A stretch of 33,568 nt of DNA. It comes from a virus. A program made the translations under genes and the position numbers. Under the pieces are notes generated by a model. The model saw only the letters and a program-made list of their open reading frames with translations. It made no database searches and was not told where the DNA came from. The DNA lies in the IMG/VR virus record IMGVR_UViG_3300045988_145346. One strand, 5' to 3'. This document shows positions 4,604 to 14,662 of this stretch, in pieces; position 1 is the first letter of the stretch, and each line of letters begins with the position of its first letter.

Positions 4604-4755
4604 TTTCTATTCTGTGTGTAATATGTATTTCGTAGTCTTCCATTACCATAACTTATACCTCAAAAATAATAGGGCTGTCGGTGCTATACCTCCTAGAGGG
4701 CTTCATTACTCTACCGACTGTATTAAGTTCCTTGCTGCAACACCCTAATGATTAT

Positions 4756-5067
4756 TTATCCGTTAATAATTTTCATCGCATCTTCAACGCTCCGAGCAAT
4801 TCCTGCAAGTGCGCCGTTTTTACGCATTGTTTCTAAAAAATAGATTTGATCAGGTCTTACTCGACCTGTTTCACTTTTTACTTCAATATAAAATACTTGA
4901 CCGTCTGGGCGAAAGCCGTACAAATCCGCATGGCCTTTTGGCAATCCTGTATCAAACCAACGGCCGTCAATCGTTTGTACTTTCCCAACATTACTGCGAA
5001 ATATTTTATTTCCAGCTTGCGATACTGCAAGCATTATTTCTGACTGGATTGTATGTTCTGACTTCAT
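4756..5067 (-). CDS. VRR-NUC domain nuclease.
   Basis: GHADLYGFRPDGQVFYIEVKSETGRVRPDQ is a PD-(D/E)xK VRR-NUC signature. Confidence 0.7.
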   Translation of the reverse strand: MKSEHTIQSEIMLAVSQAGNKIFRSNVGKVQTIDGRWFDTGLPKGHADLYGFRPDGQVFYIEVKSETGRVRPDQIYFLETMRKNGALAGIARSVEDAMKIING

Positions 5068-5326
5068 AAGTTAAGTTATGGAACAGTTGGAACAGTTTCG
5101 ATTCAGTCATACCAACATTTGAACCATTGTTCCATTTGTTCCATTAATTTCACACTCCTTTTTTATTTATATATTTATCTTTTTATTTACTATTTCTTAT
5201 TTATTAATGGAACAATGGAACAAAAAGATAATAAGTATAGATATATCAAGGTTTTTGAGTTGTTCCATGACTTATTAAATAATGGAACAACTATGGAACA
5301 GTTGGAACAGTTTCCCAACACCATAT
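5061..5326. repeat. Origin-of-replication module A. About 10 direct and inverted copies of the iteron ATGGAACAG surround an AT-rich spacer.
   Basis: Iterons at 5078-5095, 5129-5145, 5208-5222, 5261-5268 and 5282-5310. The module is bounded by ACTTCATAAGTTAAGT. Confidence 0.7.
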
Positions 5327-5580
5327 AACTTCATAAGTTAAGTACGGTAACTACGGTAACAGTTTGAACCCTTATGTTTAAACGGTTGTTACCTTGTTAC
5401 TGTTGTTACCGCCATTTCATACTCCTTTTTATTTATATATTTATTCTTTTTATTTACTATTTCTTATATTTAATAGAAACAAGAGTAACAAGTAATAAGA
5501 ATATAGATAAATAAAGGGTTTGTTAGTGTTACCGTTCTTTTTTAGCACGGTAACAAACGGTAACTACGGTAACAGTTTTA
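5327..5580. repeat. Origin-of-replication module B. It is homologous to module A but carries the iteron ACGGTAACAG (GTTACCGT inverted).
   Basis: It has the same boundary sequence and the same AT-rich spacer. Iterons lie at 5344-5363, 5381-5410, 5527-5534 and 5548-5576. The last copies overlap the 3' end of the primase gene. Confidence 0.7.
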
Positions 5581-7018
5581 CAAAACATTTAGATGTTTTT
5601 TCTTTATCTTCGTTATCCCAACGGAAACCAATATAATAATTAGGAATATCTTCACTTGGCGTAAAATCTTTTGGCCTTACCGTTTTTTTCTCCCATTCCT
5701 TAGATACATGTTTTGGCACTTCTAATTCAAACTGTCTTTTAGCTAAGGATGTATAACCCGAATCTCTACACCACTCTTGATAGAGCCACCATAAGAAACG
5801 AACGGGTAAGACACTTGATTTAAATTGAGGAAACCACTCATTGACAAATTCAATAATTGAGTTGTTCTTTTCTTTGAACTCCTGCATCATCACCTTTGTT
5901 GCTTGCGGTTCATCAAATCGCTCAAAGTTTAATTCAATTGCTTTTTTTAAAACGTATTGAAGGACTTCTTCACGGAAAATGTAATCATCTTTGATTGCCC
6001 AATTATCGTCCTTAGCTGAAAATGTTTTTCTAAAAGGGATAATTAAGAAACGTCGATAGGTTCCGTTTGTTTTATTTCTGACTTTAGGTAGCCCATTCGT
6101 AGATTGAATGACTGTCTTTTTATAAAATGAAACGTAAGGTTGTTTCCCTTTTTCTTCGACAAAAACAGGTTCACCAGTAACTACACTATTAAAGTTTGAA
6201 CTGTCATCAATGTATAGTCCGGCTTGAACATCGTCTCCGATAATAACAGTCTTACCTTCAATCATTGAAAGGGTGAACCGTTCAGAAAATTGATTGATTT
6301 TCAAACTCGCTACATTTTGCAATCCAACTAAATTACTAATTAATTGTTGTAATGTTCCCTTACCATCATTCCCTTCACCGACAAACCAGATAGATTTGCG
6401 ATAAGAATAATTACCATTTAAACTTGCTGAGATGACTTGCCATAATAATTTGACAAGCTCTTTATCTCCACTCATTAAATCAAGTAACCAGTCATCCACA
6501 TTCCAGCCATTGATATTAGGTGCTTCGATTTCTTCGATATATTCCGTTTCAATCGTTGAAGTGAAAACATATCGGTTAGAAAAGGGTTCTAATTTTTTTG
6601 TTTTTTTATTATAGATACCATTTTTTACAGGAACTAAATCACGGCTTGCTGTACTTTCAACTTCTTTCGCCATATTTTTAAGGTGAAAGATAACTTGATT
6701 TGATTTAGCTTCTGAGAAACTAGGTTCAAGCCAGAAAATCACATTATGAAAGAAATCTGCTCGTGTTTCATAAATTCCTTTATCAATGTTATAAACAGCC
6801 AAACGATCATTAATTTTTACAATTGTCATGTGTTCCTGCATCTTAGTTGCTACAACTAAAGGAGGAACACTTTTTACTTTGTCGTTTTCTTCGAGGTAAA
6901 ACTCTCTAAATCTTTTGAAATTATTTCTCAGGTCTCTGAGACTTGTAATTTCATTTGTTGGGAAGCTGACAATTTTCTTTGATTCATTATATTCAGCCTC
7001 CATCGCTTCGAATTCCAT
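5564..7018 (-). CDS. Primase C-terminal / D5-type (SF3) helicase, P4-family.
   Basis: 484 aa with Walker A VGEGNDGKGT. It lies adjacent to PrimPol, and the origin sits downstream as in Sfi21-type replication modules. Confidence 0.65.
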   Translation of the reverse strand: MEFEAMEAEYNESKKIVSFPTNEITSLRDLRNNFKRFREFYLEENDKVKSVPPLVVATKMQEHMTIVKINDRLAVYNIDKGIYETRADFFHNVIFWLEPSFSEAKSNQVIFHLKNMAKEVESTASRDLVPVKNGIYNKKTKKLEPFSNRYVFTSTIETEYIEEIEAPNINGWNVDDWLLDLMSGDKELVKLLWQVISASLNGNYSYRKSIWFVGEGNDGKGTLQQLISNLVGLQNVASLKINQFSERFTLSMIEGKTVIIGDDVQAGLYIDDSSNFNSVVTGEPVFVEEKGKQPYVSFYKKTVIQSTNGLPKVRNKTNGTYRRFLIIPFRKTFSAKDDNWAIKDDYIFREEVLQYVLKKAIELNFERFDEPQATKVMMQEFKEKNNSIIEFVNEWFPQFKSSVLPVRFLWWLYQEWCRDSGYTSLAKRQFELEVPKHVSKEWEKKTVRPKDFTPSEDIPNYYIGFRWDNEDKEKTSKCFVKLLP

Positions 7019-7799
7019 TTCTTCGCCTCATCTCCTTCTTAAACATACTTTCAAAAGTCCTTTCGAACTCTTTATCTTCTAATGGATCACTTGTGGAAAA
7101 ATTAGCTTGTTTAGCTAATTGATAAACCACATCAAAATCCACATTTCTTAAAAACAAACCACCTATAAATCGAGCTAAAGCGTCATTTCTGCCGCCACTA
7201 TCTCCCAAACCATGAACAATTGTTTCAAATAGTTGAGCAGTTTTGCTGCTTCCGCTAGTTGTAAATCCTGAAAAATCATAATGGGTATAGTTGTCACGAT
7301 TTTTCATAATCTCACGAATCAATTCTTTAGGTGCAGTAATAATTGGCAACTGGTTATCCCATTTATACTGACCTTTTCTGGTAACGCTAGGTGGAATCAC
7401 AACATAATTGTTTTCGTGGGCCTTGATGTCAACTCCTTTTAGAAATCCAATGCGTTGAGTCACGGCCATATCTTCACGTTTCAAGAAAAAGTATTGTTTC
7501 CCACCACTTGCCGTTGTTTGTGATAAGGTAGGTTTCCACCATTCTTCATCTAACAGTGGTTGAATAGATTCATAGCCATTTATATCGTTATGAACATCAA
7601 CGTCTACCACAACGAATTTATCGCACTTCATGGCTAAATTTGCTGTAGGGTTTTGTTTCCAAAAATCTTTGATTTCATCTTCTGTCAGTGGCTCACGATC
7701 TGCAAATTCTATCATTGGCTTTTTGTCACGAGAAACTGGAATAATTGATATTCCAAGTTTCTTGTAACGCAAGGCCGTCTCAAGCATTATATTTTCCAT
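6993..7799 (-). CDS. Bifunctional primase-polymerase (PrimPol) N-terminal domain protein.
   Basis: KLGISIIPV...KFVVVDVDVH, a Prim-Pol motif. Confidence 0.7.
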   Translation of the reverse strand: MENIMLETALRYKKLGISIIPVSRDKKPMIEFADREPLTEDEIKDFWKQNPTANLAMKCDKFVVVDVDVHNDINGYESIQPLLDEEWWKPTLSQTTASGGKQYFFLKREDMAVTQRIGFLKGVDIKAHENNYVVIPPSVTRKGQYKWDNQLPIITAPKELIREIMKNRDNYTHYDFSGFTTSGSSKTAQLFETIVHGLGDSGGRNDALARFIGGLFLRNVDFDVVYQLAKQANFSTSDPLEDKEFERTFESMFKKEMRRRNGIRSDGG

Positions 7800-12022: not shown

Positions 12023-12367
12023 ATGGATTTATATGAAAAAATAAAAGAACTTGCTTCTCAAAAAAATGTATCAATTAGGCAAGTTGAAGAAAAATTAGGA
12101 TTTGCTAATGGAACAATTAGACAATGGGGAAAGAAAAACCCTGGTATAAATAAAGTTAAAGACGTTGCGAAATATTTCAACGTTTCAGTTGATTTTCTAC
12201 TTGGTTTGGATGATAATCAAAGAAAGAAAGAACCTGTTGACTTGGCGGATTTTGTTGATGATAATAAAGTAAACTGGGCCGAATGGGTTTCGTTTGATGG
12301 AAAACCATTGTCTGATGAAGTAAAAAATGCAATGAAGTTAATTCTCGGAAAACGTTTAGAAGACTAG
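12023..12367 (+). CDS. XRE-family HTH repressor (CI-like).
   Basis: NVSIRQVEEKLGFANGTIRQWGKKNP helix-turn-helix. Confidence 0.8.
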   Translation: MDLYEKIKELASQKNVSIRQVEEKLGFANGTIRQWGKKNPGINKVKDVAKYFNVSVDFLLGLDDNQRKKEPVDLADFVDDNKVNWAEWVSFDGKPLSDEVKNAMKLILGKRLED

Positions 12368-13372: not shown

Positions 13373-14662
13373 TTAATAATTTAAAGTTTGACCAGCATAA
13401 ATCAAACTAGGGTTTGAAATACCATTCATTGATACTAGACTTTGAACTGTTGTTCCAAGACGACTGGCAATTGATGAAAGGTTATCTCCAGAGCGTACGG
13501 TGTAAGTCCGTGCTGTAGCCCCATATTGACCGCCTGTGAAGCGGATAACCTGACCAGAGTAAATCATGTTCGGATTAGATAAACTGTTCTGACGTGCTAA
13601 TTCTTGCCAGTTTGTCCCCAAGTTTGAAGCAATGCCACTAAGTGTATCACCTTGTTTTACAATATAACTTTTTGCGGGTGTCGTTGGCTGGCTTGTAGAA
13701 GCATCAATAGTTTCCACATCATGAACGGATAACCAGCTCATAATACCATCAAGCAAGACAGTATCTCCATTCTTCTGGATGATTTTATGTGGTTGACCTT
13801 TTACCCATTGAGGAATTGTTTCTCCTGTGGCATAATTCTTAGCGCCAAAGTTTACTTTAACCGTCATTTCAACTTCTACATCGTTTCCTTTAACTTCATT
13901 GGCTTCTTTACCATTTTCAATGGCCGGTGTAGCAGTATCGGGTTTAACTTCTTGGCCTTGCTGTTTTCCGTATCCATTATCTGTGATTCCTGTTAAATCA
14001 ACATTTCCATCAAGTCCGCCAGCAACATAAGTTGATGTGAACTGGAATACTGAAATTCCGTCCATACTTGGGAAGAAGCTATAGTTTGGAACTGGTGTTA
14101 CTTCATAATTTGGATATGCCGCAATCCATAATGAGTTAGGAAATTCTTTGATGATTTGCTTATAGTTGACATTTTCCAAAGTATAAGGCTTATATGAATA
14201 ATACATTGGAGTATATCCAGCCGCTTTTACTCGACGCATTCCGTAAAGAATCGCATCAGTATTGGCCTGTTTATTTCCACTTGCTCCACCTTCATAGTCC
14301 AAAGCTACAATAGAATTCTTTGGCGTTTGAATTTTTGGTAAATAGCGGTCAAGTGCTGCTTTTGCTACTTCTTGTGAACCTCCGACTTGATACCAAATAT
14401 AAGTGTGCGCTCGTTTACCTTGAGCAATTGCTGAAGCTACTTGCGTTTCATAGGTGGCTTGGTCCACGAATGAACCGCCATAAGTTCCTCCGATTTGACT
14501 AAAAGCAAATTTATCATGAGCATAACCAAAATTACCGTAAGTTCCGTTATATTTTGACCAGTCAACCCCTTGGTCACCGACTGCCGCAAATACAGGTCCA
14601 CTTGCTGCAACAACAAAGAAAGCTACCATTCCAATGGCAGCTTTTTTAATTAACTTTTTCAT
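13373..14662 (-). CDS. Endolysin: N-terminal signal peptide, GH25 muramidase domain and two C-terminal LysM repeats.
   Basis: [26 protein letters not shown] is a signal peptide. GVDWSKYNG is GH25. Two ...GDTLSGIAS... repeats are LysM. Confidence 0.85.

What the first reader, a model, noticed from the sequence alone, without database searches (positions are those of the whole stretch)
5061..5580. Tandemly duplicated origin with two different iteron specificities
Two non-coding modules of about 260 bp share boundary sequence (ACTTCATAAGTTAAGT) and a near-identical AT-rich spacer (CTCCTTTTTTATTTATATATTTAT..TTTTATTTACTATTTCTTAT). The flanking iteron arrays differ. Module A uses ATGGAACAG (TGTTCCAT inverted). 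Module B uses ACGGTAACAG (GTTACCGT inverted). The last B iterons overlap the 3' end of the D5-type primase gene. This looks like an origin duplication followed by an iteron switch, or recombination between two phages with different initiator specificities. No obvious iteron-binding Rep or replisome-organiser gene is present.
Basis: seen in the sequence. Interest (0 to 1): 0.72.

Follow-up and report, generated by a model that had tools for sequence, protein, structure and literature searches.

The report
Two different phage origins in tandem
A dairy Lactococcus phage carries two complete replication origins side by side; one matches its own initiator protein and the other is an intact "orphan" of the phi31 type taken from a different phage, so the parts are ordinary and only the tandem arrangement is new.

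Summary
Window 5061-5327 (module A) and 5328-5580 (module B) are two complete, positionally homologous origin cassettes with different 8-bp iterons: ATGGAACA and CGGTAACA. Related Lactococcus P335-group phages carry exactly one cassette between the same two genes. Five alleles (A-E) exist. Module A is the phi31 intergenic region (98.5% identical). Module B is 100% identical to that of three unnamed phage genomes.

The tandem arose by illegitimate recombination between two phages, not by duplication and drift. The junction (5327/5328) fuses 7 nt of the downstream gene to the last 37 nt of an A-type initiator gene. It is not an assembly artefact: six independent assemblies carry the identical junction.

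The "D5 primase" (5564-7018, minus strand) is a close homologue of SaPI5 PriRep5 (E 1e-123), a self-loading helicase-initiator whose C-terminal winged helix binds iterons just downstream of its gene. Only residues 431-484 track the iteron allele. The window's protein is type B, so module B is the cognate origin and module A has no cognate initiator in this genome.

Whether module A fires, acts as a decoy or is a passenger is untested. This is a new variant of a known kind, of moderate interest.

The parts
5564..7018 (-). Rep: a 484-aa SF3 helicase-initiator, annotated 'DNA primase' or pri31 in relatives. It has D5_N, DUF5906 (ATPase) and Pox_D5 (C-terminal domain) regions.
   Evidence: Pfam. 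PDB 7OLA, SaPI5 PriRep5: E 1.4e-123 over residues 37-449. AF2 model pLDDT 87.6. Foldseek top hit 7OLA, E 3e-46.
5567..5728 (-). Type-specific segment of the Rep C-terminal winged helix (codons 431-484, type B). It covers the C-terminal half of the predicted recognition helix (H427-437), strand 442-447 and the tail.
   Evidence: All residues that partition by origin type lie here. A-versus-B nucleotide divergence starts sharply at rep nt 1292. Secondary structure. Association table.
5328..5580 (.). Origin module B, cognate to the resident Rep. It has 9 iterons CGGTAACA (<=1 mismatch) in both orientations around an AT-rich core. The outer triple overlaps the last rep codons and the stop codon.
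   Evidence: It is 100% identical to the single origin of LT985574, LT985583 and LT993229, and 96.8% identical to Dub35A.
5412..5474 (.). AT-rich core of module B, the presumed DNA-unwinding element. On the minus strand it ends in the invariant motif AAAAAGGAGTATGAAAT.
   Evidence: GC 0.22. Invariant columns in alignment A1.
5061..5327 (.). Origin module A, the phi31 type, with no cognate Rep in this genome. It has 10 iterons ATGGAACA (<=1 mismatch) in the same layout as module B.
   Evidence: Identity is 98.5% to phi31 (AJ292531), 99.6% to proPhi7 and 99.3% to LT985582. No A-type C-terminal domain is found anywhere in the window.
5145..5206 (.). AT-rich core of module A.
   Evidence: GC 0.18. 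A 55-nt match at 94.5% to the core of module B. Alignment A1.
5291..5327 (-). Remnant of the 3' end of an A-type rep gene (encodes ...IWCWETVPTVP*). The recombination junction lies between 5327 and 5328.
   Evidence: tblastn 100% over 11 aa at 5326-5294. Comparison with proPhi7.
5276..5343 (-). Displaced copy of the VRR-NUC ribosome-binding region and its ATGAAGT start. It now opens a 19-codon junction ORF (MKLYGVGKLFQLFHSCSII*).
   Evidence: Read directly from the minus-strand sequence. The 16-nt boundary repeat is family D1.
4756..5067 (-). VRR-NUC nuclease gene (103 aa). In all relatives it is the gene that follows the origin.
   Evidence: Pfam VRR_NUC. Annotated neighbours. Identity 96-99% irrespective of origin type, except phi31 at 86%.
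6993..7799 (-). PrimPol primase (268 aa; Prim-Pol + PriCT_1). It is the counterpart of the Pri part of SaPI5 PriRep5.
   Evidence: Pfam. Identity 98-100% irrespective of origin type, so it is not the specificity determinant.

Best explanation
The region is the replication origin of a phi31-like, apparently lytic, Lactococcus P335-group phage.

The replicon is of the 'Rep-then-ori' type known from staphylococcal pathogenicity islands. The 484-aa protein upstream is a self-loading SF3 helicase-initiator. Its C-terminal winged helix is inferred to bind 8-bp iterons. These start inside its own last codons and lie on both sides of an AT-rich unwinding element. Two hexamers are thought to load there, and the separate PrimPol then primes.

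In this phage lineage two allelic origin cassettes sit in tandem. Module B (CGGTAACA) matches the type-B C-terminal domain of the resident Rep and is the working origin. Module A (ATGGAACA, the phi31 type) was joined on by one illegitimate crossover with an A-type phage. That crossover ran between position +7 of the VRR-NUC gene in the B-type parent and 37 nt before the rep stop codon in the A-type parent. Module A therefore arrived without its cognate Rep domain.

Module A is most likely not fired efficiently by the resident Rep. It is an intact orphan origin that could respond only to an A-type Rep supplied in trans, for example by a co-infecting phage or an induced prophage.

Shown: the anatomy, the homologies, the allele series, the association between C-terminal domain and iteron type, the junction, and the recurrence in independent assemblies. 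Inferred: binding of the C-terminal domain to the iterons, firing of B, and silence of A.
For: 1. Rep identity. Sequence match to PDB 7OLA (SaPI5 PriRep5) at E 1.4e-123, and the same top hit by fold. PMC9371898 states that SaPI Reps bind iterons through a C-terminal winged helix. It also states that the origin lies immediately downstream of rep, with iterons on each side of an AT-rich region and at least two per side pointing in opposite directions.
2. The same anatomy is seen here and in streptococcal relatives at 55% Rep identity.
3. Allele series. Five iteron types occupy identical positions and orientations.
4. Specificity. Across about 25 distinct lactococcal-type loci each iteron type goes with one C-terminal variant, with no exception. 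Rep residues 1-430, PrimPol, DUF669 and VRR-NUC are 96-100% identical regardless of type in five of the six phages compared; the exception is phi31, whose VRR-NUC is 86% identical. DUF658 does not track type. Residue 446 is T, L, V or K with iterons CGGTAACA, CGGTTACA, CGTTAACA and [CT]GGGAACA / ATGGAACA respectively. It is K with G at iteron position 4 in two different sequence backgrounds. The variable residues map to the predicted recognition helix and the following strand.
5. Only a type-B C-terminal domain is present in the window.
6. Recombinant origin of the tandem. Each module is 99-100% identical to single-copy origins elsewhere, and a remnant of an A-type rep gene sits at the junction.
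7. It is real and persistent. Six assemblies from six samples, made with different assemblers, share the identical junction. Five have the full 586-nt origin region with 0 mismatches to the window; the sixth contig ends inside it and has the junction. Their flanks differ from the window by 0-18 substitutions and an indel.
Against: - No binding or replication experiment exists for this phage.
- The association between C-terminal domain and iteron type could in part reflect physical linkage, since the variable codons lie only about 100 nt from the iterons.
- A and B iterons share the 3' half (AACA) and G at position 3, so some cross-recognition by the type-B Rep cannot be excluded.
- Module A shows no decay, which suits either a recent event or selection for function. 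The lineage's diversity (<=0.3%) is too low to tell these apart.
- That the phi31 region is an experimentally defined origin (ori31 / Per31; O'Sullivan et al. 1993, Madsen et al. 2001) rests on my own recollection. Those papers were not in the library.
Confidence: 0.7

Rival explanations
1. Both modules are working origins for the single resident Rep. The type-B C-terminal domain tolerates the A iteron, so the phage initiates at two adjacent sites, or loads more helicase.
For: The A and B 8-mers share 5 of 8 positions (G at position 3 and AACA at positions 5-8). Module A is fully intact and has been kept in a lineage seen in many samples. In PMC9371898, Rep1 discriminated poorly between origins in vitro.
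Against: There is a perfect one-to-one pairing of C-terminal variant and iteron type in all single-origin loci. B and C differ by a single iteron base and still have distinct C-terminal variants, which argues for fine discrimination. No other of 72 Rep-homologue loci has a second origin, so two origins give no general benefit.
Confidence: 0.15
2. Module A is kept because it acts in trans against, or at the expense of, A-type replicons. It would titrate the Rep of co-infecting or resident A-type phages, as a natural form of the 'phage-encoded resistance' decoy effect, and/or let this genome be replicated by their Rep.
For: A-type replicons occur in L. lactis prophages and phages: proPhi7, and the KW2 prophage, whose replication module matches phi31 (PMC3757294). 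Origin fragments in trans are known to inhibit phages of the matching type (PER). Module A is intact and the lineage is widespread.
Against: There is no direct evidence. No signal of selection can be measured at this level of diversity. The arrangement is unique to one lineage. No natural plasmid carries these origins.
Confidence: 0.12
3. The tandem is an assembly or chimera artefact made from a mixture of A-type and B-type phages.
For: A-type and B-type phages share long identical flanks, which can confuse assemblers. JGI metagenomes, IMG/VR and GTDB representative genomes contain no tandem.
Against: The identical junction occurs in six contigs from six samples, assembled by different pipelines (MEGAHIT-style, SPAdes-style, Logan). 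The protein is indexed in 120 blocks of the collection. The junction ATGAAGT|TATATGG lies at no shared k-mer, so a de Bruijn graph would not create it.
Confidence: 0.02
4. The repeats are operator sites for a transcription regulator, such as the DUF658 double-HTH protein, and not replication iterons.
For: There are short repeats in both orientations in an intergenic region, and an invariant SD-like motif follows the AT-rich core.
Against: DUF658 does not co-vary with repeat type and was not found within the ~3-kb flanks fetched for two related phages. The promoter-like sites found number no more than chance (2 against 5.5 expected). The layout and its position relative to rep match the SaPI origin description.
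Confidence: 0.03

Closest known systems
Origin region of Lactococcus phage phi31 (between pri31 and the downstream ORFs, record AJ292531), known to me as ori31 / Per31
   Same: Module A is 98.5% identical to it. The flanking genes are the same, and so is the replication module (PrimPol, DUF669, helicase at 99%).
   Different: phi31 and every other relative have one module. Here a second, B-type module lies between rep and the phi31-type module, and the resident Rep is type B rather than type A. The experimental status of ori31 is from my memory only.
SaPI replicons (SaPI5 PriRep5, SaPI1 Rep1, SaPIbov1 Rep) and their origins
   Same: Rep is homologous (E 1e-123). The origin lies immediately 3' of rep. 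Short iterons sit on both sides of an AT-rich region in opposite orientations. A C-terminal winged helix acts as specificity domain.
   Different: Primase and Rep are separate genes here but fused in SaPI5. The host element is a phage, not a satellite island. The iterons start inside the rep coding sequence. Two heterospecific origins are present.
Noncoding origin of Streptococcus thermophilus phage Sfi21 (PER element) and related streptococcal phages
   Same: It is a noncoding origin-like element in the replication module. In streptococcal relatives of this Rep the element lies just downstream of the rep gene, and the AT-rich core is 72-75% identical to module B. The layout of iterons, AT core and iterons is the same.
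   Different: Different iteron alleles, Rep only about 55% identical, and a single origin.
Lambdoid O protein / ori specificity alleles (lambda, phi80, 82, P22)
   Same: The initiator's DNA-binding segment and its iterons are exchanged together as one recombination cassette, which gives a series of specificities in otherwise near-identical replication modules. This comparison rests on established knowledge.
   Different: The proteins are unrelated. In lambda the iterons lie inside the O gene and the N-terminal domain binds them. No tandem heterospecific origins are known to me.
Satellite phage P4 alpha protein with ori and crr
   Same: A primase-helicase whose C-terminal domain binds iterons, with two iteron-bearing regions per genome. 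This comparison rests on established knowledge.
   Different: P4 ori and crr carry the same iteron, are 4.5 kb apart and are both needed. Here the two modules have different iterons and are adjacent.

Membership tests
phi31-type origin of lactococcal P335 phages | Position between the rep (pri31) gene and the VRR-NUC gene of the phi31-type replication module | tested here: met
   Gene order and Pfam. The same order holds in phi31, Dub35A, 98201 and proPhi7.
phi31-type origin of lactococcal P335 phages | Sequence identity to the phi31 intergenic region | tested here: met
   Module A is 98.5% identical over 267 nt. Module B is an allele that shares the invariant core.
phi31-type origin of lactococcal P335 phages | Phage-dependent replication of the fragment, and interference when it is supplied in trans (Per phenotype) | not testable with these tools
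   This needs infection experiments. The primary papers were not available in the library.
SaPI-type Rep/ori replicon (self-loading SF3 helicase-initiator) | Rep homologous to SaPI Rep, with an SF3 ATPase and a C-terminal winged-helix domain | tested here: met
   7OLA at E 1.4e-123. Foldseek E 3e-46. The model shows a helix-strand-helix-helix-strand pattern at 387-447.
SaPI-type Rep/ori replicon (self-loading SF3 helicase-initiator) | Origin immediately downstream of rep: 6-12 short iterons, an AT-rich centre, and at least two iterons on each side in opposite orientation | tested here: met
   Iteron map, GC profile, and the definition quoted from PMC9371898.
SaPI-type Rep/ori replicon (self-loading SF3 helicase-initiator) | Sequence-specific binding of the Rep C-terminal domain to its own iterons | tested here: inconclusive
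   The evidence is comparative only: a perfect association of C-terminal variant and iteron type over 5 alleles. Linkage is not excluded and there is no binding assay.
Replisome-organiser origins (TP901-1 ORF13, Tuc2009 Rep2009, lambda O) | Direct repeats located inside the gene of a dedicated origin-binding organiser protein, with a helicase loader | tested here: not met
   No such gene is in the module (Pfam). Apart from the outermost iterons, the repeats are intergenic. Description of that family in PMC8965321.
Bipartite same-specificity origins (P4 ori + crr) | The two regions carry the same iteron, bound by one initiator | tested here: not met
   The A and B iterons differ at 3 of 8 positions and belong to separate alleles.

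The most novel reading that the evidence does not exclude
The orphan phi31-type origin is not a passenger but a selected trans-acting device. A lytic phage would carry a competitor's origin. Its own multiplying genomes would then soak up the A-type Rep of co-infecting phages or induced prophages, or be replicated by that Rep. This would be a natural, phage-borne version of the engineered 'Per' decoy, and a form of origin piracy between phages.
Probability: 0.12. Interest if true: 0.75.

Novelty: new variant of a known kind. Interest (0 to 1): 0.5.

Why it matters
There are three reasons.

1. It corrects the annotation logic for a large group of dairy and streptococcal phages. The gene labelled 'DNA primase' is the origin-binding initiator, and the origin begins inside its last codons.

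2. The five-allele series gives a ready-made, directly testable recognition code for a winged-helix initiator. The replication modules are otherwise near-identical. The switch from B to C is one iteron base plus a few residues. Residue 446 is Lys in both cases where iteron position 4 is G.

3. Origins of this kind are the basis of 'phage-encoded resistance' in starter cultures. The allele series predicts which phages a given decoy origin can affect.

In addition, a widely sampled phage that carries a heterologous origin would, if that origin responds in trans, be a natural case of cross-talk between phage replicons.

Tried and rejected
- Exact junction search in GTDB representative genomes: 0 hits.
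- Search for any tandem of the conserved core in JGI metagenomes: 0 hits.
- Single-core searches in IMG/VR, GTDB and JGI: 14 loci, each with one module.
- Self-comparison of 72 Rep-homologue loci for a repeated core: only the window has one.
- The tandem was found only by exact-protein look-up in ENA and Logan assemblies.
- Plasmid collection: no match, so there is no natural plasmid-borne decoy of these origins.
- Rfam: only sub-threshold miRNA-like hairpins caused by the inverted iterons.
- Promoter and terminator scan: promoter-like sites at or below the chance level and none on the transcribed strand inside the modules. A promoter-in-origin idea gets no support.
- Short ORFs behind the invariant SD-like motif (13 aa in A, 8 aa in B, 13 aa in C) are not conserved as peptides, so they were rejected as genes.
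- DUF658, PrimPol, DUF669 and VRR-NUC as specificity determinants: rejected, because none co-varies with origin type.
- Parentage of the flanks: the VRR-NUC start of the window resembles B-type Dub35A more than the A-type phages. Later mosaic exchange has therefore blurred the donor, and I did not pursue it.
- Literature: the primary papers on ori31 / Per31 and on SaPI origins were not held. Term searches gave nothing relevant.

Full report
**The observation**

In this part of the window the genes run on the minus strand. A 484-aa gene (5564-7018) is followed by 496 non-coding bases and then a 103-aa VRR-NUC gene (4756-5067). The non-coding stretch consists of two units, 5061-5327 (A) and 5328-5580 (B).

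- Both units open with ACTTCATAAGTTAAGT.
- They share an AT-rich core: a 55-nt match at 94.5%, with GC of 0.18-0.22.
- Ten of the window's 22 TGGAACA lie in A, and seven of its eight CGGTAAC lie in B. No shuffle reaches either count.
- As 8-mers the iterons are ATGGAACA (10 copies with at most one mismatch) and CGGTAACA (9 copies). Both orientations occur on each side of each core.
- The stop codon of the 484-aa gene lies within the outer B iterons.

**What the modules are**

The window is a Lactococcus P335-group phage. It has a lysin, a short repressor and no integrase-sized ORF on the opposite strand, like the lytic phage phi31.

Every related phage has a single module between the same two genes.

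- Module A is 98.5% identical to phi31 (AJ292531), 99.6% to proPhi7 and 99.3% to LT985582.
- Module B is 100% identical to LT985574, LT985583 and LT993229, and 96.8% to Dub35A.
- Phages 98201 and 56701 carry a third allele.

An alignment shows that the alleles are positionally homologous. The iterons sit at the same places in the same orientation and differ only in their core bases. A central stretch of about 60 nt, ending in AAAAAGGAGT[GA]TGAAAT, is invariant.

Scans of IMG/VR, GTDB representatives and JGI metagenomes, plus 80 loci fetched through the protein, add two more alleles. The series is:

| Allele | Iteron |
|---|---|
| A | ATGGAACA |
| B | CGGTAACA |
| C | CGGTTACA |
| D | CGTTAACA |
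| E | [CT]GGGAACA |

. Streptococcal relatives with about 55% protein identity have the same layout. Their AT core is recognisably homologous.

**The initiator**

The 484-aa 'primase' has D5_N, DUF5906 and Pox_D5 domains. It matches PDB 7OLA at E 1.4e-123 over residues 37-449. An AlphaFold model (pLDDT 87.6) finds the same entry first by fold. 7OLA is PriRep5 of SaPI5.

The paper describing it (PMC9371898) makes three relevant statements:

- SaPI Reps are self-loading SF3 helicases that also act as initiators through a C-terminal winged helix.
- The origin lies immediately downstream of rep.
- The origin consists of six to twelve short iterons on both sides of an AT-rich region, with at least two per side in opposite directions.

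That is the anatomy seen here. The separate PrimPol gene upstream (6993-7799) corresponds to the Pri part.

**The specificity determinant**

Among seven phages the Rep is about 99-100% identical over residues 1-430. Nearly every residue that partitions by origin type (15 of 17 alignment columns) lies in 431-485. The two exceptions, at residues 7 and 168, are single differences in the one C-type phage compared. At nucleotide level the A-versus-B divergence starts abruptly at rep nt 1292, which is codon 431 (window 5726-5728). B and C diverge only from codon 446.

Over all distinct lactococcal-type loci the pairing is without exception:

| C-terminal variant | Iteron |
|---|---|
| ...NWQKKKIRPKDE... 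| ATGGAACA |
| ...EWEKKTVRPKD... | CGGTAACA |
| ...EKKL[VI]RPKE... | CGGTTACA |
| ...EKKVTRPKN... | CGTTAACA |
| ...EKKKVRPKQY... | [CT]GGGAACA |

Residue 446 is Lys in both alleles that have G at iteron position 4, although their surrounding sequences differ. In the model, residues 427-437 form the third helix of the winged helix and 442-447 the following strand. The variable residues therefore sit where base contacts are expected.

The other proteins do not track origin type. PrimPol, DUF669 and VRR-NUC are 96-100% identical regardless of type, apart from an 86% VRR-NUC in phi31. The double-HTH DUF658 protein is 92-94% identical in an A-type and a B-type phage, and was not found within the ~3-kb flanks fetched for two others.

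The last few Rep residues are encoded by the iterons themselves, so their co-variation is trivial. That does not apply to 431-460. Linkage could still contribute, and binding remains an inference.

**How the tandem arose**

On the minus strand the junction reads ...CGTACTTAACTTATGAAGT | TATATGGTGTTGGGAAACTGTTCC... The left part is module B with the ribosome-binding region and first 7 nt of the VRR-NUC gene. The right part is the last 37 nt of an A-type rep gene, encoding ...IWCWETVPTVP* (100% match at 5326-5294).

The two parental sequences share no homology at the join. One illegitimate crossover between a B-type and an A-type genome explains the structure. Duplication followed by divergence does not, because both alleles exist unchanged elsewhere.

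The window contains only a type-B C-terminal domain. Module A therefore has no cognate initiator in this genome.

**Is it real?**

None of the phage records, IMG/VR contigs, GTDB representatives or JGI contigs has a tandem. A look-up of the exact Rep sequence, however, found it in 120 blocks of the ENA/Logan collection.

- Six contigs of 23-33 kb, from six samples and different assemblers, all carry the identical junction.
- Five have the full 586-nt origin region with 0 mismatches to the window; the sixth contig ends inside that region.
- Their flanks differ from the window by 0-18 substitutions and a 15-bp indel.

The join is not at a shared k-mer. This is a circulating lineage, not an artefact. 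Its diversity (at most 0.3%) is too low to say whether module A is under selection.

**Mechanism and alternatives**

The best-supported reading is that Rep(B) binds the B iterons, opens the B core and loads itself, and PrimPol then primes. Module A is an intact orphan origin of the phi31 type.

Three alternatives remain:

- The type-B Rep may also use module A. The two iterons share 5 of 8 positions.
- Module A may be retained because it responds to A-type Reps in trans. It could act as a decoy, as in the known 'phage-encoded resistance' effect of origin fragments, or as a way of being replicated by a competitor.
- Module A may be a neutral passenger.

A-type replicons occur in L. lactis prophages (PMC3757294), so the trans scenario is ecologically possible. 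It is untested.

Readings as transcription operator sites or as an RNA gene found no support.

**Comparison and novelty**

The origin type, its position and the initiator logic are known from phi31 (from my own knowledge of the ori31 / Per31 work, which I could not retrieve), from S. thermophilus phage Sfi21 and from the SaPIs.

As far as the collections and the library searched here show, three things are new:

- the explicit link between the lactococcal 'primase' and the SaPI Rep mechanism;
- the five-allele specificity series, with a candidate recognition residue;
- a stable tandem of two heterospecific origins in one phage lineage.

I rate this a new variant of a known kind, with moderate interest.

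Noticed in passing
L001 (phi31, AJ292531) about 2250-2285, compared with window 5061-5076 and 5328-5343: In phi31 the first 12 nt of the VRR-NUC gene (ATGAAGTCAGAA) are followed by an inserted 169-aa ORF9 with its own ribosome-binding site. In the window the inserted DNA (module A) follows the first 7 nt. The start of the origin-proximal gene looks like a recurrent insertion point.
   Followed up: partly
L011 / L037 (IMGVR_UViG_2847507588_000001), origin region: In this A-type origin both outer iteron pairs, at the two ends of the origin, carry the same change between the two iterons (AACTG to AGATG). The change is concerted, which suggests gene conversion or a shared constraint.
   Followed up: no
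L001 (phi31 pri31) and L013 / L036 (IMGVR_UViG_2576861588_000007), last ~50 Rep codons: Two A-type Rep genes are frameshifted at different positions into the same alternative frame (...FYLRMMFQIIILVFVGIVKIKKSLYGVGKLFQ.FHSCSII*), which would remove the wing of the C-terminal domain. This may be a homopolymer sequencing error or a real variant. The window's 19-codon junction ORF (5335-5276, minus strand) reads the same frame.
   Followed up: no
window 5150-5166 and 5412-5431 (minus-strand motif AAAAAGGAGT[GA]TGAAAT): A Shine-Dalgarno-like motif immediately after the AT-rich core is invariant in the three alleles aligned (A-C) and slightly altered in D and E. It is followed by short ORFs that are not conserved as peptides (13 aa in A, 8 aa in B). 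Its role is unknown; it could be priming, a host factor site or translation.
   Followed up: partly
window 12023-12367 (+) and 13373-14662 (-): There is a short 114-aa Lactococcus phage repressor next to the lysin gene, and no integrase-sized ORF on the + strand. Matching contigs are about 33 kb. The phage looks like a lytic derivative of a temperate P335 phage, as phi31 is described.
   Followed up: partly
window 5073-5094 / 5128-5149, and 5345-5361 / 5395-5411: In each module the outer direct iteron pair and the next inverted pair form a 17-22-nt imperfect palindrome with a 33-nt loop. This produces sub-threshold miRNA-like Rfam hits. It could form a hairpin in single-stranded DNA.
   Followed up: no
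L016 (Lactococcus nasutitermitis NBRC 111537, contig NZ_BOVQ01000005.1) about 4750-5100: A B-type origin and Rep are present in a non-dairy Lactococcus species from a termite gut, so the alleles are not confined to dairy L. lactis / L. cremoris phages.
   Followed up: no
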